A DNA stretch of 64,000 bases, from positions 91,056 to 155,055 of the forward strand of contig JBDRSV010000024.1 of the NCBI GenBank assembly GCA_043824495.1, written 5' to 3'. Below, piece by piece: positions 15,241-31,976 of this stretch. The stretch's first letter is position 1; each line of letters begins with the position of its first letter. The notes beneath the pieces are model-generated. The model did no database searches, was not told where the DNA came from, and saw only the letters and a program-made list of their open reading frames with translations. The stretch is from Candidatus Aenigmatarchaeota archaeon. GTDB taxonomy: Archaea; Aenigmatarchaeota; Aenigmatarchaeia; QMZP01. The position numbers were made by a program, and so were the translations under genes.

Positions 15241-15264
15241 TATATCCCTCTAATTAGACAATAT
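15241..15264 (+). repeat. Junction motif copy b (TATATCCCTCTAATTAGACAATAT)
   Basis: Read directly from the sequence. AT-rich on the left, GC-richer block I2 on the right. Confidence 0.9.
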
Positions 15265-15267
15265 AAA

Positions 15268-15315: not shown

Positions 15316-16422
15316 TCATCTCAGCTTCAAAAACGCTATATGAGGTGCAGGCAGCCACTTGACTAACGATTCAGTCCAAGAGAAAGACCATTTCAGCTTC
15401 TTCTTCATCTCGTGAACCTTCATACATTTCACCGAGACTAGATTCCAGTTCAGGATGCCGAAAGCTGTGCCCAAGAGACCACCGACAAGCATAACGAAGC
15501 CCTGTCCTACAAGATCCATTCCGGCGGAGGAAACGAGAAATTTGTAAGCGAGAAATCCGCCCAAGACTCCGTCAACTGCACACAACACTCTCTGGAAACA
15601 GTGAACCATCTTGATGATGTTCCAGATAAACTGACCGATAAATGTGAGGACCACCGAGATGCACACCAAGACAACGAAAATGACGGTCAGTGCAGTGAGA
15701 ATTGGGTACCAGACAGAAAGTAGAAGCAAACTGAAGAGAATGTATCCCATCGCGTTGAGATACCCGAGTTTTATTTCTCGGCGGTTCTTCTCCTCAAGGA
15801 AATACCTCCTTCTTAACACACCGATGTCGTATTTTTGGTCCGTGTGTCTGCTTATTCCGAGAGCCTCCCCAATACTCTTATAGTTGTACAAAACGTCTTC
15901 CCCGCTAGCGTCTTTCTTATCGACCATCATGAAAGGATAGAAGAACCTTCCGCGATCACGACTTCCAACAAAAGCGAGGAAAGAAAGAACGCCGGAAAAG
16001 ATCACAACACAGGCACCAGAGAGCGCCAACAGAAGAATGCTGCTGAGAGCGAGTTGAAGGATGTTCAGTGTTTCAGCATCTGCGAAAAGACCGGAAAATA
16101 TGTGATGTGCTGGCCACAAGCCGAGCACAAGACTCGGAAAAAGGAACGGGTGTGGCTTCGAGCATAACCAGTCCTTGGCTTTTCCGTAGTTGTCTCTGAT
16201 ATAAAACGGCCAAGTTCCGATATCATCCAACATCTCTCCGAGCATCACTTGGATCGCTTTGGCCACCTCACGGAGGTCGTAACCAAAATAACCAGCTGCT
16301 CCGCCGGCCAGGAAAGCAGCAACCCACATGTACAACTTGTCCGGCATCAGCCACATGGCAGTTGCACAGAACACGATGCCTCCAATGAAGCATCCGATTC
16401 CGATCTTCATCCAATCTTTCAT
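15316..16422 (-). CDS. Hypothetical polytopic membrane protein
   Basis: 368 aa with multiple hydrophobic helices. No family recognised. Confidence 0.6.
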   Translation of the reverse strand: MKDWMKIGIGCFIGGIVFCATAMWLMPDKLYMWVAAFLAGGAAGYFGYDLREVAKAIQVMLGEMLDDIGTWPFYIRDNYGKAKDWLCSKPHPFLFPSLVLGLWPAHHIFSGLFADAETLNILQLALSSILLLALSGACVVIFSGVLSFLAFVGSRDRGRFFYPFMMVDKKDASGEDVLYNYKSIGEALGISRHTDQKYDIGVLRRRYFLEEKNRREIKLGYLNAMGYILFSLLLLSVWYPILTALTVIFVVLVCISVVLTFIGQFIWNIIKMVHCFQRVLCAVDGVLGGFLAYKFLVSSAGMDLVGQGFVMLVGGLLGTAFGILNWNLVSVKCMKVHEMKKKLKWSFSWTESLVKWLPAPHIAFLKLR

Positions 16423-16489
16423 GGCGAAAATCTCCTTCTCGTTGTATTTCTTTGTTTATAGTTATCGTCCTAGAATTAATTCAAAACAA

Positions 16490-17041
16490 TCATATCTGCA
16501 AAGGTTCAAGCAGATACATCAGACTTCGGTCTCGTAATTCTGTCCTCTTATAAGGAGGGAGATCTATGAGACAAAGACTGGAAATACTCACGTGCATGGT
16601 TTGATACTTGGTTTCGTCTGCTTGGTACATTCCCGTAAAGATTATATTATTCAGGACAAACCCGGAAACTACTGTCCAGATCCAGAATGCCATCCATCCA
16701 TCGTACAAGAAGACGCTGGCAATCGCTGAAATGATTGCACCCACTGCGAGAACACCTACCTCAAAGAGAAGCATCGTAAAGATATCTCCCACGGGGTCGT
16801 TTTTGTCCTCTTCCCACCAATCCTCCATGACGAGTTCGTGGATAATCATGTCAATGAGATTCTGCCTGTTCTGCATTTTCTCGTGGTAGGCTATGAAACG
16901 AGTTGGTTGACGAATGTTGTGCCAGATGATCAATCCAATTGGCACCCAGATGACTGCTGTAGTGACAAGCAGCCAGAGAACTACTCTAGTTTCCATGTCC
17001 CCTCCAGGATTGATTGTTAGAAAAAATACTAGTATAATCAC
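16490..17041 (-). CDS. Hypothetical membrane protein
   Basis: 183 aa with about 4 TM helices and a GTG start at 17039-17041. Confidence 0.5.
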   Translation of the reverse strand: MIILVFFLTINPGGDMETRVVLWLLVTTAVIWVPIGLIIWHNIRQPTRFIAYHEKMQNRQNLIDMIIHELVMEDWWEEDKNDPVGDIFTMLLFEVGVLAVGAIISAIASVFLYDGWMAFWIWTVVSGFVLNNIIFTGMYQADETKYQTMHVSISSLCLIDLPPYKRTELRDRSLMYLLEPLQI

Positions 17042-17221
17042 TCTCGTTAATTGACATTTCTGTCTTTCGTTGTCGTAGAGTATTGATTCCTAAATTACAG
17101 ATGATGACTTTACCTCGAACAAGAATCTTGTGCCAGGTGCTAAAAGTTGTCAGCGATGATAAATGTGGAACATGATGCATAGAATTTAACCTAAAATTTT
17201 ATAAACCTATACAAAACCTTT

Positions 17222-17244
17222 TTATACCTCTTAATTGACAATAT
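17222..17244 (+). repeat. Junction motif copy c, divergent (TTATACCTCTTAATTGACAATAT)
   Basis: 18 of 22 positions match copy b in my ungapped alignment. Lies 5 nt upstream of ATG 17250. Confidence 0.65.
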
Positions 17245-17249
17245 ATAGT

Positions 17250-17639
17250 ATGAAGAAAAAAGCAAAGAGGACCACAAAGAAAACAGTGAAAAAACCAGTC
17301 AAGAAAATAAAAATAGAAAAGAGAGTAACACCAAAACCAAAAAAAGAAGAGAAAATTAAATGTCCTTATTGTAAGAGTTCTAGAGTGGTTTGGAGAGGAT
17401 ATAGATACAACGAAAAGACTGACAAGCACTTAAGATTATGTAACAACTGTAAGAGAAAGTTCACAAAAAGAGACGAGTTCTTCCGTATGAGATTCGGTGA
17501 AGAAGAGATAAAAAGAGCTGTGGAATTATACAAGAAAGGTTATTCTTCTGCAGAAGTAGTTCAGAACCTGAAAAGAAATCATGGAATAAAGGTTTCAAGA
17601 TGGACTGTGATCTGTTGGCATAAGAGATACACTAAGTAA
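17250..17639 (+). CDS. Zinc-ribbon plus HTH protein, IS1 InsA-like / transposase N-terminal-domain-like, without a catalytic domain
   Basis: Lys-rich N-terminus, CPYCKS...LCNNCKRKF (CxxC...CxxC), then GYSSAEVVQNLKRNHGIKVSRWTVICWHKRY (HTH-like). AT-rich backbone composition. Confidence 0.6.
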   Translation: MKKKAKRTTKKTVKKPVKKIKIEKRVTPKPKKEEKIKCPYCKSSRVVWRGYRYNEKTDKHLRLCNNCKRKFTKRDEFFRMRFGEEEIKRAVELYKKGYSSAEVVQNLKRNHGIKVSRWTVICWHKRYTK

Positions 17640-17659
17640 TTATTTTTTTTATCAGTTAT

Positions 17660-17681
17660 TATATCCCTTTAAATGGACAAT
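17660..17681 (+). repeat. Junction motif copy d (TATATCCCTTTAAATGGACAAT)
   Basis: Read directly from the sequence. A T-run lies upstream and GC-rich block I3 lies downstream. Confidence 0.9.
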
Positions 17682-17686
17682 GCAAA

Positions 17687-17723
17687 GGGAGAGGTGCAGT
17701 ATTCCACATCTGCACACTCTCCC
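17687..17723 (-). terminator. Imperfect hairpin downstream of the T9SS-domain gene
   Basis: GGGAGAGGTGCAG (17687-17699) pairs with CTGCACACTCTCCC (17710-17723), with mismatches. Confidence 0.5.
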
Positions 17724-17754
17724 ACCACATCACCTTTTCAGGCTTTGCAGATTT

Positions 17755-19629
17755 TTACTTCAGAAGCGTCATCTTTTTGCTTTCCGTCAGGCTGGCCGTT
17801 TGCAACCGATAGAAGTACATACCGGACGCGACGGCCTTACCGTAGCGGTCGGTTCCGTCCCAGCTAACCTGATGTGTTCCTTCGGGCTGGGACCCGTTGA
17901 CGAGAGTGGCAACGTTGCGGCCGAGGATATCAAAGACCTCTAGCTTTACGTCTCCTCCCTGAGTCAACTGATAGGAAATCACGGTTCCGGCGTTGAAGGG
18001 GTTCGGGTAGTTCTGGTTCAAGCTGAATGATGTAGGAACGGCTCCTGTTGTCTTGTACGCGATGTTCAGCGTACCTAATGGAATCCACCCAGCCGGAACT
18101 GTCCGGCTGTTGTTGATCTCGTCAGCTATCGTTTTGGCCAACTCGTGATCGCCGAATGGATCGTCGATCAAGTTGTCGCAGTATGTTACCGCCTGTGACA
18201 CAGTCGCGCCGTCATCGCTAATCACAGCGGTTTGTGCCAGTTTGCCGCTAGCGACATTGAGTAGCAAAGCCATGAGTTGCTGTCTGGCTCGATCAATCAT
18301 GTCAACGCTGCCCTTGAGGTTCAGCAACGTCTTCGCGACTTCGAGCTTGTCTTCACAAAGATCCGACACGGGTGGATCGTACACGACGACCTCGTTCACT
18401 GCGTTCGAGTTGAAGTGGCCCGCGATGAGGTCGAGATAGCTACACAGAGTTGAAGCATCGATTTGCGCGCGGCCATTCCCACCAGTAGCGACGCCGACGT
18501 TGTGTTTCCAGAAGCCGATTGTTCGTTGTTCTCCAGCGTCTGACGGGCATCCCAATTCAAAGTCGATTTGGGCTGTGCCTTCACAATCGAGATCGACGGA
18601 CTGTTCGCTCGGAAATGCCGTATACCCGAGGGGGCCAACAAATGATACCATGTAGCTGGCCTCACCCGGGAGGTTCTCGAAATCGTAGTAACCGGCTTCA
18701 TCAGTCACAGCCGATTCTACAAGTACACCGGTGGCATCGAAGACATCAATCGTGATACCAAGAACAGAGCAGTCAGCACTCAGTGTGCCCTCAATTGCGG
18801 CGAAGCATTCTTCCTCTCCACCTCCGCATGCACACGTTCCATCTTCCACCTCAATGGCGGTGATGGTGTTGTCGTAGGCGTCCTTTGACCAGACGACGGT
18901 CAACGGCGCGAAGTTGATGACGTCGCATTCGAGATCCTCATCCCGACCACCGATCGTCGCGAAGTCACTGAGATACACGCCCGTTGTCTTGTCAATGCGA
19001 ACGATGTTGCCCAGACCATCGCGCCCGATGTAAAGGGTGTTCCCCGTCCCAACAATAACACCACTTATTCGATCCAGTGTATTGCCGGCCGCGTCGGTCG
19101 GATACAACGTTCCCAGATAGGCTCCCGAGCCCGCATCGAAGTGGTCAATGCCCGTTGATACATCATCGGAAACCCAGACACTGTTATCCGTCGCATCAAA
19201 GCCAATGCCGTCGATGAAACAGAAGCCCGGTGTTACCACAGAAAACTGGAAAGTGGCTACGCCGGTGGTGGGATCGATGAGATACACGTTCGCCGGACAT
19301 TCGTTGTCACTGCCTCCCCAGATCATGTTGCGCGTATTGTCCCATGCAATAGCGCCGATCGAAACTGGTGTGCCATCCGGTTTGAAAATGGAAACGAAGC
19401 CGAGATCGGTGCCGAATTTGTCTATCGAGTAGAGAGTTGGGTCGAAAGAGTTGGTGTAGAAAATCACACCATCACATCCAACTGCAACACCGATACCGAC
19501 ACCAGACGAGCTTGGAACAGGAACTGTGACGTTCGTGATGACATCACCGGGAGCTGCCATTGACGTAGCGGTGATAGCGGTGAAGAGGCAGAACACAACA
19601 AGCGCAGTGAAAGCTGTGAGACGCTTCAT
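17755..19629 (-). CDS. Secreted beta-propeller/CarboxypepD_reg-like protein with T9SS (Por) C-terminal sorting domain
   Basis: Signal peptide MKRLTAFTALVVFCLFTAITATSMA. The C-terminal NYPNPFNAGTVISYQL...VFDILGRNVATLV...GMYFYRLQT...KKMTLLK is the classic T9SS CTD pattern. GC-rich. Confidence 0.85.
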   Translation of the reverse strand: MKRLTAFTALVVFCLFTAITATSMAAPGDVITNVTVPVPSSSGVGIGVAVGCDGVIFYTNSFDPTLYSIDKFGTDLGFVSIFKPDGTPVSIGAIAWDNTRNMIWGGSDNECPANVYLIDPTTGVATFQFSVVTPGFCFIDGIGFDATDNSVWVSDDVSTGIDHFDAGSGAYLGTLYPTDAAGNTLDRISGVIVGTGNTLYIGRDGLGNIVRIDKTTGVYLSDFATIGGRDEDLECDVINFAPLTVVWSKDAYDNTITAIEVEDGTCACGGGEEECFAAIEGTLSADCSVLGITIDVFDATGVLVESAVTDEAGYYDFENLPGEASYMVSFVGPLGYTAFPSEQSVDLDCEGTAQIDFELGCPSDAGEQRTIGFWKHNVGVATGGNGRAQIDASTLCSYLDLIAGHFNSNAVNEVVVYDPPVSDLCEDKLEVAKTLLNLKGSVDMIDRARQQLMALLLNVASGKLAQTAVISDDGATVSQAVTYCDNLIDDPFGDHELAKTIADEINNSRTVPAGWIPLGTLNIAYKTTGAVPTSFSLNQNYPNPFNAGTVISYQLTQGGDVKLEVFDILGRNVATLVNGSQPEGTHQVSWDGTDRYGKAVASGMYFYRLQTASLTESKKMTLLK

Positions 19630-20175
19630 GGATTTTTATTCCTTAGGTTGTGAGGGAAATATGACCCTCCGGGTTTGTTTTTCGATTAGTTTCTGATTGT
19701 TTGTCGTTTACCACGTTTCCAAGTTAAGGTCCGCGAATCGCTATTTTCATTGGCATCCTCTCTTTGGGTTAATGTTGTCCGCACAAATTGCGGGATTAAA
19801 AGAAGGAAAGACACAAAAGATAGAGTATGTCTTATGTAGACTGAGAGTAAAATCATTCGAAGAATAAAGCTAATACTATTAAAACAAACATGCATGTTTG
19901 ATGTGTTTCTTTTCATGTTTTTTGTGTTAGCCAATGTACCGTTTCTATGGTTAATTGGATTGATTGAGTTGCAATCAATACAAATTTAAATGATGTTCGA
20001 ATGAGTAGCATGATTTAAATTGTATACAAAAATTGACGTTGATTCATCGTCGTTTTTTTGTGTTTTGGTATTTTTTTTGATTCTAGCTTGTCGCTTTTGT
20101 CAAGTCTTTAACTCAAGTATATAGCTTACAGGTATTTAAATGTTTTCTAACACATTTTTTTTAATTTTCTTTCTT

Positions 20176-20197
20176 TTATCCCTTTAAATAGACATAT
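20176..20197 (+). repeat. Junction motif copy e (TTATCCCTTTAAATAGACATAT)
   Basis: Read directly from the sequence. A T-run lies upstream and GC-rich block I4 lies downstream. Confidence 0.85.
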
Positions 20198-20206
20198 AAA
20201 AAGGCA

Positions 20207-20259
20207 AACGGGCGAAGATTTGGAGCCAAACTCTTCTTGATGTCTCACCTCCGCCCGTT
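20207..20259 (-). terminator. Compound hairpin next to motif copy e
   Basis: AACGGGCG (20207-20214) pairs with CGCCCGTT (20252-20259), with an inner GAAGATTTGG/CCAAACTCTTC stem. On the minus strand it is followed by TGCCTTTTTATAT. Confidence 0.4.
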
Positions 20260-21168
20260 AAATGCCGTTGTCCGGCCTATCAATTTACCCGCCGGTTAGG
20301 TGAGCACATGTGCTCGTGTCCCAGAGGCGCATGTTTTCATGCCCTCCTTTGCCGGGTTCTTACGCGAACGTGCTGCTTGACCGAGATAATGTAGCTGCCA
20401 GATTCCCCACAACCTTGTTATTGGTGGAACCGCGACAGCGGTCGGTCCAGTCCGTATGCATCGTAGCCTCACTTGGTGAAGGACTGCGAATCAAGAGACG
20501 GGGATTCAGAAGAATCCCCGTCTCACGAGTTGACGGTTGGTACGAGATATATCAAAGGAAGTCTTTATGCCATTGGGTGCATTCCGAAACCTTTAGCCTC
20601 GTCCGTCTCCGAGGGATCCTATCAAAGGTTTCATAAAGGAAATTTCATGGACCTCGTTACGATAGGATCGGAGTGGCGTAAAGCCACGGCCAGAACCTCG
20701 AGGTCCCCCAGGATAAGATCACCGTTTGAATATGAGTCAGCGGTGAACGTAAGGGTGCTGGCGATTCTTCTTCGCATTCAAACCCTCCAGGGAACACTTC
20801 GTAATTTGTGTTGTCAGCGGCTGTTTACGAATCGGCGGTGATCGTTTCCACCACGGTACATGTCGGCGTGGTGACAAACGATGAAGAAGCGACTTCAAAA
20901 CGCGCGCGGCCATTGCTCGGCGGCGGCGAATGAGCCCAGGCATTGACGGCGGTCGCGGCGGTATTCATCCAGGAAGCGACCACTGGTGACCCGCGAAGGG
21001 TCGGTAATCGGTTCATAGAGCAAGCTCCATTTCTTCCGATAGGAAAATTCCAATCCACTTTACAAACTCTCGCCTAAACAGAAAGTATTGTCACATAACT
21101 TTCCGTCGCAAAAGAGAATGTGAAGAGGAAACAATTTCGTACACCTCGTCAAGAGATCGTCTCCATTT

Positions 21169-21534
21169 TCACCCTACATGGGCTAGGCGAGAGGATAGAC
21201 CAGTTGCTGATAGAGATGTAGAGGGAACCGTTTTCATCCGAAGATCTCTCCCGTCCCTCAGGGAGTAAGTTGCTCGTCCACCAGGTTCCCATACCAAGGG
21301 AGCTGGCAACTCTGCCATTCTCTCTATCCGACTCTCTGTTGTCATCGCCACTACGGCAACAACTCTTAGCCTATCCGGCGTAGGATTATGAGAGTGTAGA
21401 GCGAATTCCTCGTTCCATGTTTGTTCTGTATCGCTGCCTGTTATGATATCCAATCCTGAAAACGGGATTGGGTCAGCGGTATAAACAATACAGGAACCAT
21501 ATATGAGGTAGCAGAGTGTCATGATTCCCAGCAT
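21169..21534 (-). CDS. Possible small secreted protein
   Basis: AAGGAG lies 5 nt upstream of the ATG, with a hydrophobic N-terminus MLGIMTLCYLIYGSCIVYTA. It is the only ORF in block I4 with a good RBS. Confidence 0.4.
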   Translation of the reverse strand: MLGIMTLCYLIYGSCIVYTADPIPFSGLDIITGSDTEQTWNEEFALHSHNPTPDRLRVVAVVAMTTESRIERMAELPAPLVWEPGGRATYSLRDGRDLRMKTVPSTSLSATGLSSRLAHVG

Positions 21535-23161
21535 GACAACTCCTTACAAGGGCACATGGTTATATGGTAAATGCTCTCTCCGTCAACAAATCGTGCCCTC
21601 TAAGACATGTTTAGGAGAGAAAGGCGACAACTCATGAAGTGTTCTTCAGGTGGACCCGTCATCACTGTTATTGCGTTGACGGCCTTCTCCTTGACCCGGA
21701 CTTAGACGTGTGGCTTTCGGTGTTTTCGCGGCGCGTTTCTGCTGTTTTGGACTACGCTTCTTGTTGCTCGGAAGCCCGTCTCGGGCACCACCGTGACACG
21801 TCATGAAAGACCTCGTTTGTGAGGAGTTCAGTTCAAGCTTGTGCTGGAACTGTTTGGAACGAGGAATTGTTACTCTTTACGGCGAGCGATTGTGTGTCAT
21901 CGTAACTCCTTGACAATGGTTTCCACAAGCTCCAAAATAAAAAAGAGCTGTTGTTTTCAAATTCAGTTGGGAATCTCCTAGCCCGCCCCCAGAACTGACT
22001 AGAGGAGATCCCCAACTTTTGTACAGCGCACCCCGTGCATTGTTTTCAGGGTGGAGGGGCCCGGCGGTCAACTGAGCCCCTCACTGGACGAATCGGTCAC
22101 AGATAACATGTTACGCATTACCGACTCGAAATCTATGCCACGGCAGTAGATGGAAGTGGTCGCATCTACCGCCGGGCTTCACGACGTTGTGCATTTTGTC
22201 GCCTTCAGCCTTACACAACGCCGTTATTTCCCCACCCACAGGGAATTTAATATCGCGGGGCCTCACTCAGGAGACCCCGCTTCCGTTGGGTTTACTACCG
22301 AATTGTTCGGTAGCGTTCTTCCACGACAGACATACGCACATGCGCACGTCTTCATTTCTTTGAGGACCTACTCATCTCCGATTTGAGTAGGTCCTCGGCT
22401 CCCCACAACCCCCCGATCAGCACCGGGAATTTTTTTGAGGGGAAATCTGAGCAGATATCTCAGACTCCCCTCCCGTCAGGTCTACCGACCAGCACTTCCG
22501 GTTGGACGCCGGAAATTCTTTATTAGAAGGGGTTTCCCCTCTCCAAGAAACCCCTTCCTCTTCGGCGTAGCGCGTCTCACGCGCTTTAGTGCATCGATCC
22601 CCACCGATCAGGTAAAACCCTTGGATGGTTCTCTCCCCGAACCCCCACTGAAATATTTTGGAACCCCTCATAGATCCCCGTAATCTCCGAGAGGTTCCGA
22701 CAGCAGCACCATACAAATGGGACTACCGTGACAATCAAAAATACCGGAATCCACCGCGTCAGAAGAGGATTCCGGTATTCTACATCGCTGGTTGTGTTGA
22801 GAGCTTACCCCTTACTGGTCTTAACGAGTATGTTACGTCGGACTTCCTTTCACCAAATATACGGGTCACTACAGAATACCCGATCGATCCGCTTTGTTGT
22901 CTTAATCTCACCAGCGGATAGTGACGCGGTTACAGCCAGCGATTTCGCCTTTATACAACAGGCGTCTCCAAACCAAAATGGAAATTGGAGTTGTTGCTTC
23001 CACACTTCCGGATTTCCCCCTCCGGTAAACTCTAAGGTACTGATAGGTGACCGCTCGTGTTTCTTGTGTTCGCAATTGCCGATTGCATCAAGCTCTTCGT
23101 AGATCTAGATCTGGAAGTAATTAGCAAACGATCACAATAAACAGACAACTGGGAGAAGTCC

Positions 23162-23788
23162 ATTTCTACCAGTACCTGGATTTTCTAACCCTCGGGAGGT
23201 GTGTACAAGCCTAAGCAGAGTTTGTCCTGTTGAATTGGCCCCGAGGGTAAGTGGCCTTCCGGAAGAGAATTGGTGAGGTCCTGTAACAGAACTCTATCTC
23301 ATTCCGGGGTAAAGCTCAAGGCACAGCCAGAAGGAGACGTATTACCTTGAGAAGTTGGTCTCCCGAGTGAAGAAATTCGAGATGTCCCATCGATGAAGGA
23401 CATCTCTTCTCCACTCGGGCTCATTCGTCAGCCTGGAAGGAGAAGTGCAAGAGTTTTCGCGCAATTACTCTCTCTCCTCCCGGGAAATTTATGACCTCCT
23501 GGTCCGAAACTTGTGCCGCGGTAAACCAGAAGGCGTAACTGCTAGGCTATGTGACGGCCACAGCAGTAGGGATCGAATCCAATACACGAAAGACAGCTAA
23601 GACTAACTCTGTCTCGTGTGGTTTACGAGTAAAATTCAGAAATCGATAGTCTTCGGCCTCTTCGAGGGAAACTGCTTAAGCGCTTAATTGCAGCGCGTTA
23701 TGTTTCCTGGTAAGTGACCTGTTCTCTAGGATGTACCGAAGGCTAACTTAGTTAGTCTCGGGAAATTCGCGTGTGATTGGTAGAAATG
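23162..23788. ncRNA. Candidate ~630-nt structured RNA (family unknown, strand undetermined)
   Basis: CATTTCTACCA (23162-23172) is complementary to TGGTAGAAATG (23778-23788). Internal helices include CCCTCGGG/CCCGAGGG and GAGATGTCC/GGACATCTC (23379-23406). No ORF. Confidence 0.35.
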
Positions 23789-23949
23789 AAACATGAAATG
23801 TCCTTATATATAAATGTAATTTAATTACTTAAATAGGTTGATGGATAGCTTTAAAAAGGTACTATTAAAATTATTTTTTTGTGAAGGGATCGATATACCA
23901 AGTGCTTCCAAAAATAAAGAGTAGAAAAAAATAAGAGTGAAAAAAGCAA

Positions 23950-25992
23950 TTAACCAATGAATTCAACCTTTTCAAAACTGCCGTTTTCTTCAAATTTGTC
24001 TAATGTTGATACGAAAATTATTACTTTTTTCTTGTCTTCTTTACAGATTCTAGCTGCTTGTTGTATTACCATGTTCTTGATTCTGTCTGAAGCACATATG
24101 AAATGATTGCTTTGTTTCAAGTCCTGATAAATTAATTCTCTATCATCTGTGTCTTCAACCATTATAGTTAATTCTTTTCCATCGTTCTGTAAATATATTC
24201 TGTTACCTTCTTGTTCACTCTTCCATCCGACTTCATTAAAGGTCTGCATGATACCTGTTAAGTTCAATTCTTTTTTCTGTGTTGAGTTACCAAATTTATT
24301 AGTGAAAACTTTCTCTCCTATATTTGTAAGAAAGTAATAACATAATCTATTCTTCTTAACTTTAGCATCAGCTGAATCAACTAATCCGTTATAAGTTAAG
24401 TTCTCAACCTTTTTCTTGAAAGTTGCTCCTGACATTTTTACATTTGTGTATATCTGAGATGTGTAAGCAGCACTACCATTACCAATGGTTTTCATCATAG
24501 CCCACTCTTGTTCTCCTAAATCCTCAATTGGAAGAGAGTTTATGAATTCTTCTTCCTTTACTGGAGGAGGTGAGTAGCTATCTTCTTTAGCTATTCTGTC
24601 TTTCATGTGCTCTCTGATATCATCATCTACAATAGAGTTCTTAACCAGTTTAGCCTTGTCGAATTTTACAAGGAATGGTTCTGGGAAATTCATAGAGTGT
24701 CTCAAAAGCATGAAACCGTGACCTACTGGCAGTCTTCTTAGATACTTACCTTCTTCTCTAGAATCAAGACCAAGCATGTTTGAAGCGTCTTGAATATCTG
24801 AAGTATGTTTTGTATCCAAACCTAGATTCATGTATATATGAGTAGAAGTATTACCAATTGCTGGATATGAAACTAAAGATGGATGCTGATCTATGTATAT
24901 CATTCCTAATCCTAATTCTCTAATTTCTCTAAATATTAATTCTACAACGGTTTCTGATCCTAATTTGGCAGATTTTTCTCTGTTAAGAACATGATGAGCT
25001 TCTTCCATCACTATACATCCTATGACTTCTTCTTTTCCGCCTTCTACGAGTAACCAATCTCTTATCCACTGTAGAATTATTTCTATGATAAAGCTCTTAT
25101 CATTAACATCAAGAGCATCTAATTCTAGAATTGTTACCTTTCCTTTCTTGAAGAAATCAGATGGTTTTATACCTTCTACACAGTCGAATATATGACCTGT
25201 GTCTTTGAAGCATAATGACTCTAATGGTCTTTCAGCTGTTGCTAACCAGTTTCTTTCTCTTGTTGGCAGCTTACCTTCTGCATATTCTGCTAAGTAATCT
25301 TTAAGGTCAAACAGTGTTGGATTTTTCTTTTCCTTGAAAACTCCATCTAAAGCTTTCAAGATTACGTGTCTTCCACCACCGAGTAACCAGTAAGAATGAT
25401 CGAATATTGAAGAGAACTCTTTCATCCACTGTGTTTGACTAATTCCTTTAGGACCTTTCAGTGGATTGAATTTGAAAGGAGCTACGCCTCTTCCGATTGT
25501 GTAAATATCTATTTTGTCTTTAATTTTAGTTGATAGTAAATCTTTATAATTTCTCTTAGAGAAATCAAATATCAAAACAGGAATATCCTTTTCTGCTAAT
25601 TCTTCAATTAAGTTATATGAAATATTTGTTTTACCATAACCAGATGAACCAAATATTCCTATATGTGTAAGTAAGTTTTTCTCTTCTAGCATGATTGGAT
25701 ATAAACCCTTTCTTCCGTATAAAACATCACCTAATCTAATTGTTCCTTTAGCTGCTGCTTCTTGGCTAGGAGGTTCCATTAGTACTGTATCTCTTAGATC
25801 TTCATCAGCAGAAACTGCGGCTTTTATAACATCAAGTAGTTCGAAGATTCTTTGTCTTACATCTTCGTTTCCAACTAAGTAAGCTTTACTTAATCTCAAA
25901 GCTTTGTCTTTACCCAAGATTGGAGTAAGCTTCTTAATTTCATCTGCAATTAGTTTTTCTTGAATATTAATCATTTGTACCACCCAAATCAT
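23950..25992 (-). CDS. HerA/DUF87-type P-loop ATPase with C-terminal winged-helix-like region
   Basis: Walker A GIFGSSGYGKTN and Walker B-like GCIVMEEAHHV. 680 aa. Confidence 0.7.
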   Translation of the reverse strand: MIWVVQMINIQEKLIADEIKKLTPILGKDKALRLSKAYLVGNEDVRQRIFELLDVIKAAVSADEDLRDTVLMEPPSQEAAAKGTIRLGDVLYGRKGLYPIMLEEKNLLTHIGIFGSSGYGKTNISYNLIEELAEKDIPVLIFDFSKRNYKDLLSTKIKDKIDIYTIGRGVAPFKFNPLKGPKGISQTQWMKEFSSIFDHSYWLLGGGRHVILKALDGVFKEKKNPTLFDLKDYLAEYAEGKLPTRERNWLATAERPLESLCFKDTGHIFDCVEGIKPSDFFKKGKVTILELDALDVNDKSFIIEIILQWIRDWLLVEGGKEEVIGCIVMEEAHHVLNREKSAKLGSETVVELIFREIRELGLGMIYIDQHPSLVSYPAIGNTSTHIYMNLGLDTKHTSDIQDASNMLGLDSREEGKYLRRLPVGHGFMLLRHSMNFPEPFLVKFDKAKLVKNSIVDDDIREHMKDRIAKEDSYSPPPVKEEEFINSLPIEDLGEQEWAMMKTIGNGSAAYTSQIYTNVKMSGATFKKKVENLTYNGLVDSADAKVKKNRLCYYFLTNIGEKVFTNKFGNSTQKKELNLTGIMQTFNEVGWKSEQEGNRIYLQNDGKELTIMVEDTDDRELIYQDLKQSNHFICASDRIKNMVIQQAARICKEDKKKVIIFVSTLDKFEENGSFEKVEFIG

Positions 25993-26515
25993 TAAAGATC
26001 TTTAAGATCTTATTTTCTGTTTGTAGTTGTTCCAGGAGCTCTCTTAGCTCTGTTTTTAATTCTAATCCATCTCTCCAAAAAAGAATATTTTCTTGTCTTT
26101 TTTCTTTTCTGAGAATAGAAACATCAAGTTTGAAATTTCTCTTTTCATCGATGTCTGTGATATGATTCATCATATCGTCTTTTTCTTCGATGTCTTCTTC
26201 AATTTCTTTTAAGAATGTTTTGTGGAGAACTTCTCTTTCTTTCATAGTGTTTTCAATTTCACTAACTCTTATTTGCAAGAATTCTACTTTATCGAATAAG
26301 CTTCCAATAACTAGAGGATCATCTCTTTTTAGAGCAGTGAGTTTACTTTCTTCAAATCTTGGCATTGATCTTTTCTTAATAATTTGAACTTCTCTAACTT
26401 CGGGTTCATCTAGATCAATCTCATCATGTCTAATTAAAGACTCACGTCTTCTCTTTTTTGTAATGTCTTCATACTCGTCAAGAGTTTTATAATAGGGTTC
26501 CATTAATCTGTCCAT
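25967..26515 (-). CDS. Coiled-coil protein, overlaps the start of the ATPase gene
   Basis: 182 aa, highly charged with a heptad-like E/K/L-rich sequence. Confidence 0.5.
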   Translation of the reverse strand: MDRLMEPYYKTLDEYEDITKKRRRESLIRHDEIDLDEPEVREVQIIKKRSMPRFEESKLTALKRDDPLVIGSLFDKVEFLQIRVSEIENTMKEREVLHKTFLKEIEEDIEEKDDMMNHITDIDEKRNFKLDVSILRKEKRQENILFWRDGLELKTELRELLEQLQTENKILKIFNDLGGTND

Positions 26516-27342
26516 AATAATTACCTCGAGTGACCATTTGTCACTATCTGATAGTTAAAATATGTATAAAGGGTTTATAAAGCTTTCGGTTAGCTTGCAG
26601 TGTGCTGTTTTTGAGCGTAAAAATCGTGTACGAAAGACAATTTTCTTGGGTTTCCATGACTTTTGTGCCAACGAAAGACATATTCTGTCTTTAGTAAGAG
26701 AGTTAATAAAGATTTCTGTCTCGCGCCTTATAAAGGATCCGAATTGGATATTTTATATAGTAATTAATTACTATTGTAGAGATCTTTATTTACTTAAGTC
26801 TTTACATAAATAATTCTCAAATACTTTTTGTCTTTGCTAAAGTTTAATGCAGATTTTCCTCGAAACTTTTGTGGAAATTCTTGAAATCAAATGTCTTCTA
26901 GTTTTGCTAGAGCTTTTGAAGACATGGAAACTCTCATAAAACCCCAACCGAAAAGTATTTAAACCCTTTGACTATAATTTCACTATAGATTAGTGACAAC
27001 AAATTAAGAAATGTCTGAGTTATGTGTGGTGTCAAATCCTACATAACTATCTTTACAATCTACGCAACTTTGAATAAAAAGAATTTCGGGTTAAACTCGC
27101 AATTCTAAACTCAGAGAAATTGAGTGCACAGGAATTTAGGCGCGGCCTAAAATCCCCATAAGAAATCCAAAAAAATGACACGCTTTGTGTCAAAAAATGT
27201 GATTTGAGGGGGTTTGATTTCCTTAGCTCTGAGTATCTACTTTTCGAAAACCACGAAGACTCGCGTAACAATTCTAAGCAATAAATATAGTGAAATTCCA
27301 GACTTCTGTAGACTTTCGCTGTCTGACATAGAAATTAACAAG

Positions 27343-27353
27343 TTGACAATAAA
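27343..27353 (+). promoter_or_regulatory. TTGACAATAAAC box (sigma70 -35-like), first of three copies
   Basis: The same box recurs at 29367 (CTGACAATAAAC) and 30278 (TTGACAATTAAC), each 35-55 nt upstream of a start codon. Confidence 0.4.
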
Positions 27354-27377
27354 CGGAAACTTCTGGGAGGGATTGTC

Positions 27378-27740
27378 ATGAGAAATATCATGAGCTGTGT
27401 TTTCCTGCTGCTCACATTATTCCTGGTGAGTTGTGCGAAAAGTGGTCCGGAGCTGGGGAGTGATATCCGGATCAGTGGAACAATCGTCGACATGAGCGAA
27501 GGAGGTAGTAGGGATTTCCTGATCCAGTCCGGAGGAAAACTCTACCATTTCGGTACTCGACTGCAATTTAAATGGAGTAAACTTCGTGCGGGACATTACG
27601 TCACCGTGGATGGGAAGTTTGGGGGACCGTGCGAGGAAGCCTCAATGTTCAGACGCTACATGTACGACGACGAAGGGAACTTCATCAAGTCCCTCGAGGT
27701 CTATGACATCATCCATGTTTCGAACGTGGAGAGGCAGTGA
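27378..27740 (+). CDS. Putative lipoprotein
   Basis: MRNIMSCVFLLLTLFLVSCAKSG (lipobox LVSC), with GGGAGGG upstream. Confidence 0.6.
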   Translation: MRNIMSCVFLLLTLFLVSCAKSGPELGSDIRISGTIVDMSEGGSRDFLIQSGGKLYHFGTRLQFKWSKLRAGHYVTVDGKFGGPCEEASMFRRYMYDDEGNFIKSLEVYDIIHVSNVERQ

Positions 27741-28098
27741 TCCCACTGAGTTCATCCAATTCATCGGGTGGACCCAGATGAGATTATTGTCTAAAGGCTA
27801 AATCAGCAGGCCTTGAATTGTTGGTAGGGATCATTGGAAGATTCCCAAAAACATGGCAAGGAGGGCAACATGTCGCAGGGAACCAAAAACACCAAAGACA
27901 CAGGAACAAGAGCGTTTCTGGTTATCGACGGAACTACAGGAGACCTCATTCCTGTGAAAGCATCGTCTGGACGAAAAGCTGAGCAAATCGCCGGCAGCGT
28001 AACCAGACAATCCCGCAAATAAAATTACCCACTGTGAATTCCCCAGGAGTATCATCCGCCCGGAAGATACTCTGTTCTCCCCCATACTACCATAGGCC

Positions 28099-28138
28099 AC
28101 ACGGAGCTCATCAGGTTTTCACTTGGTGGGCTCCAGTG
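28099..28138 (+). promoter_or_regulatory. Conserved intergenic hairpin element, copy 1
   Basis: CACGGAGCTCAT...GGTGGGCTCCAGTG. Shares the GAGCTCAT / GGTGGGC core with copies 2 and 3 but has a different, still complementary, outer stem. Confidence 0.45.
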
Positions 28139-28240
28139 AGATCTTTGGTGGTTAACGTTCCATAACCGTTTCATTCACAACCTTTTGCCGACCTTGTCTG
28201 CATTGCAGCTCAAGGAAGTGTGTAAAGGAAGGAGAGTGTC

Positions 28241-28942
28241 ATGTTATTGCATGTAACAGTAATAAGCCGCGGAGACAGAACAACGATCGATGTTCCCAGA
28301 ACAGAATTCAACTGGGATACCAATCAATGTCGCGTAGTTGAAGGTGCAGAGGAAGCTGAAAGAAATCTCGGGGTGGCGGAGAATCTCGAAATCCGTAAAC
28401 CCGCGGCTTACCAGGGACCCTATTTATACTGTATTGTAGAGGTGGGGTTCGAGGAAATTTGTTTTCCCCCGACTTTCCTCAAGTGGATCGAGAATGTTCC
28501 CGAGGATGAGAAAAGAGCCATCCTTATCGTTCCCACCAAAACCATCCGAAAGGCCGATGATAGTCACTATATGGGATCTATAGATCGTTATAGGTATTAT
28601 CCTCATGGTGAAGTCTTCCTGATTGGTCGCAGAATCATCGTGAGGAACATCTACCTATCACCTGATAACATCAAGATGGTGGTGGATAAAATCCTTGCCC
28701 GACTGAGTGACGGCCTGTTCCTCCGGTTGGCCTTTGAGTTTCTCCAGGCTACGCCGATCAGTGACAATCCTACGGTGACTGGAGAACATATCACCATGTT
28801 GGATAATCTCTTCACGGGGACGCGTTCCCTTCGGAGAGGAGATTCAACTCGTCGCGAACGGTTCAATCATGTTCGGGCCGTGATTGGACATATGGCCAAA
28901 CACGGGATAGTTCTGTCTGGCAAGATCGAACCCGTGAAGTAA
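28241..28942 (+). CDS. Hypothetical protein
   Basis: 233 aa with AAGGAAGGAGAG upstream. No family recognised. Confidence 0.6.
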   Translation: MLLHVTVISRGDRTTIDVPRTEFNWDTNQCRVVEGAEEAERNLGVAENLEIRKPAAYQGPYLYCIVEVGFEEICFPPTFLKWIENVPEDEKRAILIVPTKTIRKADDSHYMGSIDRYRYYPHGEVFLIGRRIIVRNIYLSPDNIKMVVDKILARLSDGLFLRLAFEFLQATPISDNPTVTGEHITMLDNLFTGTRSLRRGDSTRRERFNHVRAVIGHMAKHGIVLSGKIEPVK

Positions 28943-28995
28943 TCAACGGCTTGGAAACCAAGTCAAATCAACGACAATGAAAGTTGAGGTGTAAT

Positions 28996-29316
28996 ATGAA
29001 TAGGCGAATACAGAGTATGATTGTGATGACTGCGACTTTGATAGCTGTTGCAGTCTTTCTCCAAGTCTCACAGCTTCACGCGGCACATTTGATGGCAACC
29101 GCAATTGCAATTGCGGTTGTGGTGATGATCGTTGTTAACATGGGAAGAGTTCCCAACACTCGGCAGAAGTTTCGGAACTTCTCTGTCGGAGCCGTTTTCG
29201 GGAGCATCTTCCTGTGGGAGTTGTTCAAGGTTACGTTCTTGAATCACCCTGCGGCTCTTTGGAGTGTGGTTGTACTCGGAGCTGCGGCAGTCTCATTTCT
29301 GACGTTCCGCCGGTAG
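28996..29316 (+). CDS. Hypothetical membrane protein
   Basis: Three hydrophobic helices. GAGGTG lies 4-5 nt upstream of ATG 28996. Confidence 0.55.
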   Translation: MNRRIQSMIVMTATLIAVAVFLQVSQLHAAHLMATAIAIAVVVMIVVNMGRVPNTRQKFRNFSVGAVFGSIFLWELFKVTFLNHPAALWSVVVLGAAAVSFLTFRR

Positions 29317-29330
29317 TACTGAAGTTCACC

Positions 29331-30233: not shown

Positions 30234-30240
30234 TTGTTAC

Positions 30241-31975: not shown

Positions 31976-31976
31976 G

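What the first reader, a model, noticed from the sequence alone, without database searches (positions are those of the whole stretch)
20198..23800. 3.6 kb GC-rich block with almost no coding potential but packed with perfect hairpins
No ORF exceeds 124 aa in any frame, and only 21169-21534(-) has a good RBS. The block contains many long perfect stems of unrelated sequence:
- 20497-20522 (11 bp)
- 20615-20623/20661-20669 (9 bp)
- 22362-22396 (13 bp)
- 22435-22470 (about 14 bp)
- 22526-22557 (11 bp)
- 22740-22779 (13 bp)
- 23379-23406 (9 bp)
Translations are R/P/S-rich, as expected for structured non-coding GC-rich sequence. This could be one or several large ornate ncRNAs, an array of structured DNA sites, or badly decayed genes. 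It is preceded by motif copy e, like the coding blocks.
Basis: seen in the sequence. Interest (0 to 1): 0.7.

Follow-up and report, generated by a model that had tools for sequence, protein, structure and literature searches.

The report
Gene-free hairpin-chain RNA unit, DPANN archaeon
A 3.6 kb stretch in a tiny symbiotic archaeon's genome (Aenigmatarchaeota) encodes no protein and instead looks like a separately transcribed RNA built from about 45 unrelated hairpins; related genomes carry similar gene-free blocks at the same spot, and its function is unknown.

Summary
Window 20198-23800 is 50% GC in a 33% GC genome. No ORF exceeds 124 aa. It has 8 perfect stems of at least 9 bp, against 0.56 in shuffles.

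It is not decayed coding DNA:
- there is no period-3 signal anywhere;
- six-frame Pfam finds nothing;
- a BLASTX-like search of 5.8 billion proteins finds nothing;
- the only ORF with an RBS (121 aa) has no coding signature and no homologue.

No Rfam family, tRNA, CRISPR array, C/D-box sRNA or terminal repeats were found.

The helices carry a strand signature. Isolated mismatches inside strand-neutral helices are A.C on the + strand 12 times and G.T twice. They are therefore G.U wobbles only in a minus-strand RNA. The 921-nt core (21930-22850) folds at -421 kcal/mol on the minus strand and -330 on the plus strand.

The organism is an Aenigmatarchaeota MAG. Relatives with about 55-70% HerA identity carry gene-free, structure-rich blocks of 1.2-3.9 kb in the same HerA-ArgRS interval. 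These blocks share a promoter-like leader, and four of the six relatives' blocks end at the same hairpin plus 27-nt motif. Their bodies are not alignable.

Best reading: an independently transcribed, fast-evolving, non-coding hairpin-chain RNA cassette on the minus strand. Covariation could not be tested, and function is unknown.

The parts
20198..23800 (-). Body of the gene-free unit: about 3.6 kb, 50% GC, about 45 local stem-loops on the minus strand
   Evidence: Composition. No coding signal. Local folds. Strand signature.
21930..22850 (-). Densest part: about 21 consecutive, unrelated hairpins in 921 nt
   Evidence: MFE is -420.7 kcal/mol (z -12.1) on the minus strand and -329.9 (z -8.1) on the plus strand. 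Allowing G.U pairs gains 94.5 kcal on minus (shuffles 62.8 +/- 8.5) and 17.0 on plus (shuffles 33.5 +/- 6.3). Helix mismatches: A.C 7, G.T 0, other 2.
20203..20266 (-). Terminal stem-loop (22 pairs, dG -27), followed in minus sense by U5 (20202-20198). This is the 3' end of the unit and looks like an intrinsic terminator.
   Evidence: A hairpin next to the motif is seen in most of the 31 motif copies folded (my reading of the structures); downstream z<-2 in 55% of copies against 13% upstream.
20175..20201 (+). Motif copy e (TTTATCCCTTTAAATAGACATATAAAA), the boundary element shared with the other GC-rich blocks. In + sense it reads as an archaeal TATA promoter pointing into the block.
   Evidence: The same motif lies 18-20 nt upstream of the ATG of a conserved Zn-ribbon/HTH gene in L089, L122 and L123.
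23786..23796 (-). Conserved 5' box TCATGTTTCAT, the inferred start region of the transcript
   Evidence: The box TCATRYTCAY lies about 30 nt downstream of a TATA-like box after HerA in L119, L123, L124, L129 and L132, and at both cassettes of L116. A similar box lies at the 5' end of GC block A (window 17175, minus).
23805..23856 (-). Three TATA-like boxes (TTTTTAAAG, CTATTTAAGT, TTTATATATA), the inferred promoter of the unit
   Evidence: Read from the sequence. TTTAAAGCTAWCYAT is shared with the L116 leader. Transcription was not measured.
23910..23945 (-). T6, T7 and T5 tracts directly after the HerA stop, the likely terminator of the HerA operon. They argue that the block is a separate transcription unit.
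   Evidence: Read from the sequence. Oligo-T as an archaeal termination signal is general knowledge, not tested here.
20491..20528 (-). Hairpin with a 13-bp perfect stem (GAGACGGGGATTC/GAATCCCCGTCTC), dG -26.9
22362..22396 (-). Hairpin with a 13-bp perfect stem, dG -21.8
22731..22788 (-). Hairpin with a 13-bp perfect core extended by G.U pairs on the minus strand (22 pairs, dG -27.4)
23362..23419 (-).
21169..21534 (-). 121-aa ORF with an AAGGAG Shine-Dalgarno sequence; probably not a gene
   Evidence: Codon log-likelihood is -0.08 bits/codon, against +0.15 to +0.36 for genes of the GC-rich blocks and the same as chance ORFs. Period-3 score is 2.2. It hits only itself among 5.8e9 proteins and among 1.8e9 cluster representatives. 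By my estimate, about one stop-free run of this length is expected by chance in 3.6 kb read in six frames.

Best explanation
The block is a separate, non-coding transcription unit read on the minus strand, in the same direction as the neighbouring HerA-like gene.

Proposed sequence of events:
1. Transcription of the HerA operon ends at oligo-T tracts (23945-23910).
2. A TATA-type promoter (about 23856-23805) and a conserved 5' box (23796-23786) start a new RNA.
3. The roughly 3.6 kb RNA folds co-transcriptionally into a chain of about 45 independent hairpins. It is densest at 22850-21930.
4. It ends at a 22-pair stem-loop plus U5 (20266-20198), next to the 27-nt boundary motif.

It is one of several modular 'cassettes' inserted among core genes of this AT-rich Aenigmatarchaeota chromosome. 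Each cassette has an AT-rich promoter-leader, a body of about 45-50% GC, then a hairpin and the motif. This one carries RNA structure instead of a protein gene.

Relatives keep a gene-free, hairpin-rich block at the same place but with unrelated sequence. The RNA therefore most likely acts through generic hairpin content: as a stable protein- or nuclease-binding scaffold or decoy, or as a precursor of hairpin-derived small RNAs. It is unlikely to act through one conserved fold.

Shown: non-coding status, excess structure, strand asymmetry, recurrence in relatives, conserved ends.
Inferred: promoter, terminator, independent transcription, and any function.
For: Non-coding:
- The median period-3 score is 0.93 in 351-nt windows and none exceeds 4. 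Coding GC-rich blocks give medians from about 2 to 7.
- Six-frame Pfam gives 0 hits at E<=1.
- All stop-free pieces of at least 45 aa give no hit at E<=0.1 among 5.8e9 proteins.
- The 121-aa ORF is an orphan with chance-level codon usage.

Structure:
- 8 perfect stems of at least 9 bp against 0.56 expected.
- With G.U pairs forbidden, every sub-region still scores z -4.4 to -8.
- Coding GC-rich blocks score only z -0.5 to -2.2.

Strand:
- With G.U forbidden, the two strands of the core fold equally well (-289 and -293 kcal/mol).
- Allowing G.U gains 94.5 kcal on minus (z +3.7 against shuffles) and 17 on plus (z -2.6).
- In helices found by Watson-Crick pairing alone, isolated mismatches are A.C 12, G.T 2 and other 11 on the + strand. 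Shuffles give 3.4, 3.0 and 11.8.

Unit boundaries:
- The conserved TATA-plus-box leader appears after HerA in six relatives and at other cassettes.
- A hairpin next to the motif is seen in most of 31 motif copies from W and 15 other loci, at least 13 distinct assemblies. Mean fold z is -2.4 downstream of the motif and -0.6 upstream.

Recurrence:
- Gene-free blocks of 1.2-3.9 kb lie in the same HerA-ArgRS interval in L116, L119, L123, L124, L129 and L132.
- L116 and L119, the two tested, lack period-3 signal.
- They have excess structure.
- In HerA-sense orientation their helix mismatches sum to G.T 37 against A.C 12.
- Block GC stays at 41-50% while host GC ranges 34-55%.

Not an assembly artefact: an independent Logan contig is 100% identical over 17094-29629.
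Against: - No transcription data exist.
- No alignable homologue exists. The closest HerA is 70% identical and only on a 3.2-kb contig; the closest usable loci are 68-69%. blastn and nhmmer find nothing in the body. The classical covariation test therefore could not be run.
- The lack of any conserved body sequence or shared k-mers among the blocks of relatives is unusual for a functional RNA. It would also fit neutral filler DNA in a variable island.
- Other relatives (L122, L127, L139) have small genes at this position instead.
- The G.U asymmetry could partly reflect transcription-associated C-to-T mutation bias rather than selection for pairing. That would still imply minus-strand transcription.
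- Coding controls also show some asymmetry in the energy-based test.
- The boundary motif reads as a promoter pointing the other way, so the plus strand may be transcribed too.
Confidence: 0.55

Rival explanations
1. Neutral or decaying foreign DNA. A GC-richer fragment was acquired horizontally into a variable island. It either lost its genes or never had any. Its hairpins are left-over gene-terminal hairpins of the donor and have no present function.
For: - The HerA-ArgRS interval is variable among relatives and holds different cargo.
- Bodies of the gene-free blocks share nothing.
- Aenigmarchaeota are reported to have many HGT-derived genes (PMC8407114).
- Gene-terminal hairpins of the same type follow genes in the coding block 28241-35835.
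Against: - There is no residual period-3 signal in any window and no protein match. Decay would have to be very old.
- Yet three 13-bp stems are still perfect, and most isolated mismatches in the core helices (7 of 9; 12 of 25 block-wide) are wobble-compatible on one strand only.
- About 21 hairpins lie back to back without motif remnants between them.
- The genomes of this phylum are small, 0.5-0.9 Mb (PMC8407114), and gene-free blocks recur in six relatives with conserved leaders.
- The GC-rich block proteins tested have no relative at 90% identity or above, so no recent donor is visible.
Confidence: 0.2
2. A very long structured 5' and 3' UTR around one real small gene, the 121-aa ORF at 21169-21534(-). 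The hairpins would then be mRNA-stabilising or regulatory elements of that gene.
For: - The ORF is on the inferred sense strand and has an AAGGAG sequence 6 nt upstream of its ATG.
- NCBI annotates it as a hypothetical protein.
- In L116 the gene-free stretch is followed by two small called ORFs before the hairpin-motif end.
- Other cassettes have 130-200 nt leaders.
Against: - Its codon log-likelihood of -0.08 equals that of chance ORFs in the block, while real cassette genes score +0.15 to +0.36.
- Period-3 score is 2.2.
- It has no homologue among 5.8e9 proteins or 1.8e9 representatives.
- By my estimate, about one ORF of this size is expected by chance.
- A 2.3-kb 5' UTR would be unprecedented.
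Confidence: 0.1
3. DNA-level hairpin or cruciform sites, such as recombination sites (integron attC-like), a replication origin, or protein-binding palindromes.
For: - There are many perfect palindromes.
- The organisation is cassette-like, with a conserved boundary motif.
- The location is a variable island.
Against: - The wobble asymmetry is an RNA property and a DNA site would not show it.
- The hairpins share no sequence, so there are no R/L-box-like cores.
- No integrase or recombinase domain was found in the window ORFs scanned.
- There are no ORB-like repeats or an AT-rich unwinding element; the block is the GC-rich part.
- There are no terminal direct or inverted repeats.
Confidence: 0.05
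4. Convergently transcribed region. The 27-nt motif is an active promoter that drives plus-strand (antisense) RNA into the block. The functional product is then an antisense or double-stranded RNA.
For: - The motif contains a consensus TTTAAATA box.
- In L089, L122 and L123 it sits 18-20 nt upstream of the ATG of a conserved Zn-ribbon/HTH gene, so it can act as a promoter in that sense.
- The hairpin starts where its transcript would start.
Against: - No plus-strand RNA signature: the G.U gain on plus is below shuffles in every sub-region.
- In the other cassettes this orientation is antisense to real genes.
- The hairpin-plus-U-tract reading explains the same geometry.
Confidence: 0.1

Closest known systems
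GC-rich ncRNA islands in AT-rich archaeal genomes (Klein, Misulovin & Eddy 2002; the Hgc RNAs), and the long GC-rich intergenic-region criterion used for ncRNA discovery (PMC11109978)
   Same: An ORF-free segment whose GC content stands far above an AT-rich genome and which folds much better than shuffles. This is the classical signature of structured RNA genes.
   Different: - Those RNAs are tens to hundreds of nt long and conserved; this unit is 3.6 kb with no conserved body.
- The Rfam Hgc families and all other families gave no hit.
- In this genome, protein-coding blocks are also GC-rich, so GC alone is not diagnostic here.
- The 2002 paper is cited from memory.
Large ornate bacterial ncRNAs (GOLLD, ROOL, OLE, HEARO/omega RNA)
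   Same: Large size, no ORF, heavy secondary structure, frequent association with mobile or variable regions.
   Different: - They have conserved sequence cores and long-range architecture supported by covariation.
- Here the fold is a string of local hairpins, there is no Rfam match, and relatives' blocks are not alignable.
Integron cassette arrays (attC hairpins; archaeal integrons were reported by Ghaly et al. 2022, cited from memory)
   Same: Modular units in one orientation, each ending in a hairpin next to a conserved boundary. ORF-less cassettes exist. The cargo has foreign composition.
   Different: - No IntI-type integrase was found in the window.
- The hairpins are perfect or wobble-paired and lack R/L cores.
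- The conserved element is an AT-rich 27-mer outside the hairpin.
- The units carry their own promoters and are scattered among core genes.
- The helix signature is at the RNA level.
CRISPR arrays and eukaryotic piRNA clusters (as an analogy of organisation only)
   Same: A conserved leader or promoter and a conserved genomic position, with a non-coding body that is not conserved between relatives.
   Different: - There are no direct repeats of any period.
- There are no cas genes nearby.
- No evidence exists that small RNAs are made.
Intrinsic-terminator and REP/BIME-type intergenic hairpins
   Same: Stable GC-rich stem-loops at gene ends. The cassette genes in 28241-35835 are each followed by one.
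   Different: - About 45 hairpins occur in a row without genes.
- Their sequences are unrelated, whereas REP elements form families.
- Few have T tails: 10 terminator-like sites against 4.5 in shuffles.

Membership tests
Any Rfam 15 family (rRNA, RNase P, SRP, group I/II introns, GOLLD, ROOL, OLE, HEARO, Hgc RNAs and others) | Covariance-model score at or above the family's gathering threshold | tested here: not met
   Zero hits at gathering threshold in the whole window and in L116 and L119. In E-value mode on 19500-24500, only 4 chance-level snoRNA/pseudoknot hits with E 4-7.
tRNA / tmRNA | ARAGORN-detectable cloverleaf | tested here: not met
   Zero genes in the 64 kb window.
Pseudogene / decayed protein-coding DNA | Residual similarity to proteins in some frame | tested here: not met
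   Pfam in six frames gave 0 hits at E<=1. All 41 stop-free pieces of at least 45 aa other than the 121-aa ORF (searched) gave nothing at E<=0.1 against 5.8e9 proteins. tblastn against relatives and the rest of the window gave nothing.
Pseudogene / decayed protein-coding DNA | Residual 3-base periodicity or codon bias in local windows | tested here: not met
   The median period-3 score is 0.93 and no 351-nt window exceeds 4; coding blocks give medians from about 2 to 7. Codon log-likelihood of all ORFs is -0.12 to +0.03, against +0.15 to +0.36 for genes.
Coding under an alternative genetic code | Long ORFs appear when one stop codon is read through | tested here: not met
   All three stop codons occur in all frames. 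The longest run with one stop reassigned is 316 codons.
Integron cassette array | Tyrosine-recombinase IntI next to the array | tested here: not met
   No integrase domain was found in the window ORFs of at least 150 aa that were scanned. A few ORFs were not scanned.
Integron cassette array | attC sites: imperfect hairpins with conserved R''/L''-L'/R' cores and extrahelical bases | tested here: not met
   The hairpins share no sequence. The stems are perfect or wobble-paired. A dedicated attC model was not run.
CRISPR array | Regularly spaced direct repeats | tested here: not met
   No direct-repeat family and no tandem repeat inside the block.
Archaeal C/D-box sRNA cluster | C box RUGAUGA and D box CUGA at the correct spacing | tested here: not met
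   Zero candidates on either strand.
TIR- or att-bounded mobile element (transposon, MITE, integrated plasmid or virus) | Terminal inverted or direct repeats at the two ends; similarity to known mobile DNA | tested here: not met
   Only low-complexity matches of 10 nt or less between the two ends. No match in phages, plasmids or IMG/VR.
Archaeal replication origin | Clustered ORB repeats around an AT-rich unwinding element, usually next to orc1/cdc6 | tested here: not met
   No repeated boxes inside the block. The block is the GC-rich part. The neighbours are a HerA-like ATPase and a T9SS-domain protein.
Structured ncRNA (generic) | Folding energy significantly below shuffles, with a strand-specific G.U signature | tested here: met
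   z -12.1 (minus) against -8.1 (plus) for 21930-22850. G.U gain z +3.7 against -2.6. Mismatches A.C 12, G.T 2.
Structured ncRNA (generic) | Compensatory base changes in homologues (covariation) | not testable with these tools
   No alignable homologue: the closest HerA is 68-70% identical, and blastn and nhmmer of the body are negative. Strain-level copies of the relatives are identical or nearly so.
Structured ncRNA (generic) | Evidence of transcription | not testable with these tools
   No RNA-seq tool was available. The promoter and terminator are inferred from sequence only.

The most novel reading that the evidence does not exclude
Aenigmatarchaeota carry a lineage-wide class of long hairpin-chain RNAs. 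These are independent transcription units with a conserved promoter-leader and a conserved hairpin-motif end. Their position is conserved next to the HerA-like ATPase, but their bodies turn over completely.

They would be the non-coding members of a previously undescribed cassette system. That system moves cargo of about 45-50% GC between genomes and is policed by a motif-binding Zn-ribbon/HTH regulator.

The RNA would act through generic hairpins: as a decoy or scaffold, or as a source of hairpin-derived small RNAs. In organisation it would resemble a CRISPR array or a piRNA cluster, but without repeats.
Probability: 0.2. Interest if true: 0.85.

Novelty: new variant of a known kind. Interest (0 to 1): 0.6.

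Why it matters
Genomes of this phylum are small (0.5-0.9 Mb; PMC8407114). Multi-kilobase stretches without a gene are therefore unexpected, and I know of no large non-coding RNA described for DPANN archaea.

This window gives a concrete, bounded candidate. Its strand, start and end are predicted, and comparable gene-free blocks exist in six related genomes. A strand-specific metatranscriptome or population SNP data could test it directly.

If real, it would be a long prokaryotic RNA whose position and hairpin-rich character are conserved while its sequence is not. That behaviour is familiar from eukaryotic lncRNAs and from CRISPR or piRNA loci; I know of no described prokaryotic structured RNA that behaves this way.

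It also exposes a modular cassette organisation (promoter-leader, GC-richer body, hairpin plus 27-nt motif). This may explain how these symbionts take up and control foreign genes, including surface proteins.

If it is junk instead, it shows that even these streamlined genomes tolerate kilobases of non-functional DNA.

Tried and rejected
Readings tested and rejected:
- Alternative genetic code: rejected.
- Pseudogene remnants. Pfam in six frames, a BLASTX-like search with concatenated stop-free pieces, and tblastn against relatives and the window were all negative.
- The 121-aa ORF as a real gene. It has no homologues and chance-level codon usage.
- Known RNA families and tRNAs.
- C/D-box sRNAs.
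- Direct or tandem repeats, i.e. a CRISPR-like array.
- Terminal repeats of a mobile element.
- Bacterial-type promoters and terminators: uninformative.

Searches for homologues or a donor:
- No similarity to phages or plasmids.
- No exact hairpin matches in IMG/VR.
- The genome-contig scan with a 14-specified-base motif pattern was too degenerate and was largely spent on chance hits. It did yield about 10 archaeal loci carrying the motif.
- The metagenome scan with HerA found no relative closer than 68%.
- Strain-level copies of the relatives are identical, or differ by 1-2 bases, and were not mined for stem changes.
- Shared k-mers among the gene-free blocks: none beyond the leader.
- nhmmer of the block against 1.2 Mb of fetched loci: nothing.
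- Donor search through 90% identity clusters of the GC-rich block proteins: five are singletons and three exact sequences were not in the collection.

Other:
- A literature search found no description of such a locus.
- The first z-score scan and one control run hit the time limit and were repeated in smaller form.

Full report
1. The observation

Window 20198-23800 is 50.1% GC in a background of about 33% GC. The composition changes within about 100 nt at both edges. No ORF exceeds 124 aa. All six frames carry 35-59 stops of all three kinds, so no reassigned stop codon opens a long frame.

- 20495-20524 is longer than reported, with a 13-bp perfect stem.
- 22435-22470 is imperfect.
- Two further 9-bp stems exist.

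Perfect stems of at least 9 bp number 8, against 0.56 +/- 0.73 in dinucleotide shuffles. Stems of at least 12 bp number 3, against 0 in 100 shuffles.

2. Source and reliability of the sequence

The only protein match of the 121-aa ORF is an NCBI entry from a 'Candidatus Aenigmatarchaeota archaeon' MAG, on a contig of 171,815 bp.

The AT-rich backbone encodes core archaeal genes:
- ribosomal proteins L24, S4e, L5 and S7;
- RNA polymerase subunit D;
- ArgRS;
- an Obg-like GTPase;
- an intein-containing inositol-1-phosphate synthase.

An independent Logan assembly is 100% identical over 17094-29629. The GC mosaic is therefore not an assembly chimera.

3. The block is not coding and not recently decayed coding DNA

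- Period-3 power is at noise level in every 351-nt window: median 0.93, none above 4. Coding GC-rich blocks of the same window give medians from about 2 to 7. Local periodicity would survive frameshifts, so this argues against young pseudogenes.
- Six-frame translations hit no Pfam family at E<=1.
- A BLASTX-like query built from 41 of the 42 stop-free pieces of at least 45 aa (the 121-aa ORF piece was left out, having been searched) found nothing at E<=0.1 among 5.8 billion proteins.
- The 121-aa ORF with an AAGGAG RBS (21169-21534, minus) matches only itself, both there and in an exhaustive phmmer of 1.84 billion representatives.
- Its codon log-likelihood is -0.08 bits/codon, the same as the chance ORFs of the block. 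Real cassette genes score +0.15 to +0.36.
- By my estimate, about one stop-free run of that length is expected by chance in this much sequence.

4. The block matches no known RNA or repeat class

- Rfam gave no hit at gathering threshold in the window or in two related loci. In E-value mode it gave only chance-level hits.
- There are no tRNAs.
- There are no C/D-box candidates.
- There are no direct or tandem repeats.
- There are no terminal repeats.
- There is no similarity to phages, plasmids or IMG/VR.

5. The structure is real and belongs to the minus-strand RNA

Folding energies:
- Sliding-window folding concentrates the excess structure in 20198-20680, 21940-22840 and 23320-23500.
- The 921-nt core folds at -420.7 kcal/mol (z -12.1) on the minus strand and -329.9 (z -8.1) on the plus strand.
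- With G.U pairs forbidden, the two strands are equal (-289 and -293). Allowing G.U gives the minus strand 94.5 kcal (shuffles 62.8 +/- 8.5) and the plus strand only 17.0 (shuffles 33.5 +/- 6.3).

A strand-neutral test gives the same answer. Helices were found by Watson-Crick pairing alone, and their isolated internal mismatches were classified on the + strand.

| Region | A.C | G.T | Other |
|---|---|---|---|
| Core 21930-22850 | 7 | 0 | 2 |
| Core, shuffles | 0.81 | 0.84 | 2.8 |
| Whole block | 12 | 2 | 11 |
| Whole block, shuffles | 3.4 | 3.0 | 11.8 |

The mismatches are therefore G.U wobbles only in a minus-strand transcript.

Caveat: transcription-associated C-to-T bias could contribute to this asymmetry. 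That would still imply minus-strand transcription.

On that strand the whole block resolves into about 45 local stem-loops with dG <= -12 kcal/mol. It is a chain of hairpins, not an obviously long-range 'ornate' fold.

6. Comparative context

The HerA-like gene (23950-25992, minus) has many close homologues, several annotated as Aenigmatarchaeota. The closest is only 70% identical, and that one sits on a 3.2-kb contig. Loci fetched through it show a conserved gene order, with a variable interval between HerA and ArgRS.

| Locus | Gene-free stretch | Position |
|---|---|---|
| Window | 3.75 kb | After HerA |
| L119 | 2.3 kb | After HerA |
| L124 | 1.4 kb | After HerA |
| L129 | 1.9 kb | After HerA |
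| L132-134 | 2.0 kb | After HerA |
| L123 | about 1.2 kb | After HerA |
| L116 | 3.3 kb ORF-free (3.9 kb leader to motif) | After one intervening coding cassette |

L122, L127 and L139 have small genes at this position instead.

Properties of the relatives' blocks:
- The L116 and L119 blocks lack period-3 signal; the other blocks were not tested as blocks.
- They fold better than shuffles: with G.U forbidden, z is -4.7 to -9 for L116, L119 and L124.
- In HerA-sense orientation their helix mismatches sum to G.T 37 against A.C 12.
- Their GC content is 41-50% whatever the host GC, which ranges 34-55%.
- Their bodies share no alignable sequence or k-mers with each other or with the target.

Covariation therefore could not be tested. 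Strain-level copies of the relatives are identical or differ by 1-2 bases, which were not examined.

7. Conserved ends define a unit

5' side:
- A TATA-like box followed about 30 nt later by TCATRYTCAY is shared by the window (box at 23796-23786, minus), L119, L123, L124, L129 and L132, and by both cassettes of L116.
- A similar box heads GC block A (window 17175, minus). A similar one heads the 59030 block.
- Oligo-T tracts directly after the HerA stop separate the two units (sequence).

3' side:
- A 22-pair stem-loop (20266-20203) plus U5 abuts the 27-nt motif.
- The motif has 7 copies in the window, one of them weak. Six lie at the 3' side of a GC-rich block relative to its genes. The weak copy at 17221 heads the Zn-ribbon gene.
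- It is conserved in the window and 15 other archaeal loci (at least 13 distinct assemblies; several are annotated as Aenigmatarchaeota).
- In most of the 31 copies it is followed by ATATAAA and a hairpin of unrelated sequence. Mean fold z is -2.4 downstream and -0.6 upstream.

The target therefore has the anatomy of the coding cassettes but lacks a gene.

The motif remains ambiguous.
- In its own sense it has a consensus TTTAAATA box. It sits 18-20 nt upstream of the ATG of a conserved Zn-ribbon/HTH gene in L089, L122 and L123, and a diverged copy precedes that gene in the window (17235-17639).
- It may therefore be a regulated promoter that fires antisense into cassettes, a companion of the terminator hairpin, or both.

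8. Interpretation

Best-supported reading (confidence about 0.55): an independently transcribed, minus-strand, non-coding RNA of about 3.6 kb made of many unrelated hairpins. It is one member of a positionally recurrent but sequence-unconstrained class in Aenigmatarchaeota.

Because nothing but hairpin richness, composition and the two ends is conserved, the function most likely depends on generic stem-loops. Candidates are a stable scaffold or decoy, or a precursor of hairpin-derived small RNAs. This last step is inference only.

Rivals:
- neutral foreign filler DNA (0.2);
- an antisense or double-stranded RNA product driven from the motif (0.1);
- an oversized UTR around the 121-aa ORF (0.1);
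- DNA-level sites (0.05).

9. Novelty and score

The block belongs to no described family. The nearest concepts are:
- GC-rich ncRNA islands of AT-rich archaea;
- large bacterial ncRNAs;
- in organisation, integron cassettes or CRISPR/piRNA-type loci.

It fails the defining tests of each (see the membership table). I rate it a new variant of a known kind (a long structured ncRNA locus), with interest 0.6. The anatomy is striking and testable, but transcription, covariation and function are all still unproven.

Noticed in passing
window 3004-3030(-), 15241-15267(+), 17221-17247(+, weak), 17660-17686(+), 20175-20201(+), 36282-36308(-), 56967-56993(+): A 27-nt motif, TATATCCCTTTAAATAGACAATATAAA. 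Six of its seven copies lie at the 3' side of a roughly 50% GC block relative to that block's genes. It is conserved in the window and 15 other archaeal loci (several annotated as Aenigmatarchaeota; host GC 34-62%) and is nearly always followed by a hairpin of unrelated sequence. Whether it is a promoter firing antisense into the cassettes, part of a terminator, or a regulator's operator is unresolved.
   Followed up: partly
window 17235-17639(+); L119 14336-14626; L122 16106-16420; L089, L123, L124, L129, L141, L006: A small Zn-ribbon plus HTH protein (CPxC...CxxC, 96-134 aa) is conserved next to motif copies. In several genomes the motif is 18-20 nt upstream of its ATG. It is a candidate motif-binding regulator. 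Pfam gives only weak zinc-ribbon and Terminase_5 (HTH) hits.
   Followed up: partly
window 868-2947, 15316-17041, 17755-19629, 27300-36280, 57064-59030: Protein-coding blocks of 45-58% GC are inserted among core genes of a 33% GC chromosome. Relative L119 has a uniform 41% GC and keeps the same core gene order without them. Most products are ORFans. The five GC-block proteins found in the collection are singletons at 90% identity, so no recent donor is visible.
   Followed up: partly
window 17755-19629(-): A 624-aa protein with a bacterial-type T9SS C-terminal sorting domain (Por_Secre_tail), FlgD Ig-like and SdrD B-like domains, encoded in an archaeon at 54% GC. L116 has a FlgD_ig protein of more than 1174 aa at the corresponding place.
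   Followed up: no
window 29328-29378 and 30239-30289: A repeated 51-nt element: a GGGGATCCC hairpin followed by a motif variant (ATCCCYTCAACYTGACAATWAAC). It lies just upstream (within about 10 nt) of the ATGs of the ORFs at 29388 and 30295. Here the TATA part of the boundary motif is replaced.
   Followed up: no
window 29096-29119, 31948-31975, 32580-32612, 34769-34798: Some genes of the 28-36 kb GC-rich block are followed by a 10-12 bp perfect hairpin; four such intergenic hairpins were found. These are the same type of stem-loop that fills the gene-free block.
   Followed up: partly
window 47035-49560(-): A myo-inositol-1-phosphate synthase interrupted by an intein with a LAGLIDADG endonuclease domain. 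The orthologues in L119, L122 and L123 are 360-440 aa and lack the intein.
   Followed up: no
window 39330-42056(-), 44028-45038(+), 36936-37589(+): A type IIG Eco57I/MmeI-like restriction-modification fusion, a DDE transposase and a PD-(D/E)XK nuclease lie in the AT-rich part between the GC-rich blocks. This looks like a defence and mobile-element neighbourhood.
   Followed up: no
window 26956-26986 and 50829-50859: A repeated promoter-like 31-mer (TATTTAAACCCTTTGACTATAATTTCACTAT). One copy heads the 27-36 kb GC-rich block and another lies upstream of the RibBA gene (50858-52045).
   Followed up: no
window 20391-20414 and 22387-22410: A short shared sequence inside the block (...CCCCACAACC; GGUUGUGGGG in the minus-strand RNA) lies next to two different hairpins. 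There are only two copies, so this may be chance.
   Followed up: no
L122 7817-8806; L124 12500-13409: Further gene-free stretches bounded by a motif copy occur elsewhere in relatives: a 1-kb gap in L122 with the motif pointing into it, and a 50-54% GC segment in a 37% GC region of L124. This suggests that non-coding cassettes are not confined to the HerA locus.
   Followed up: partly
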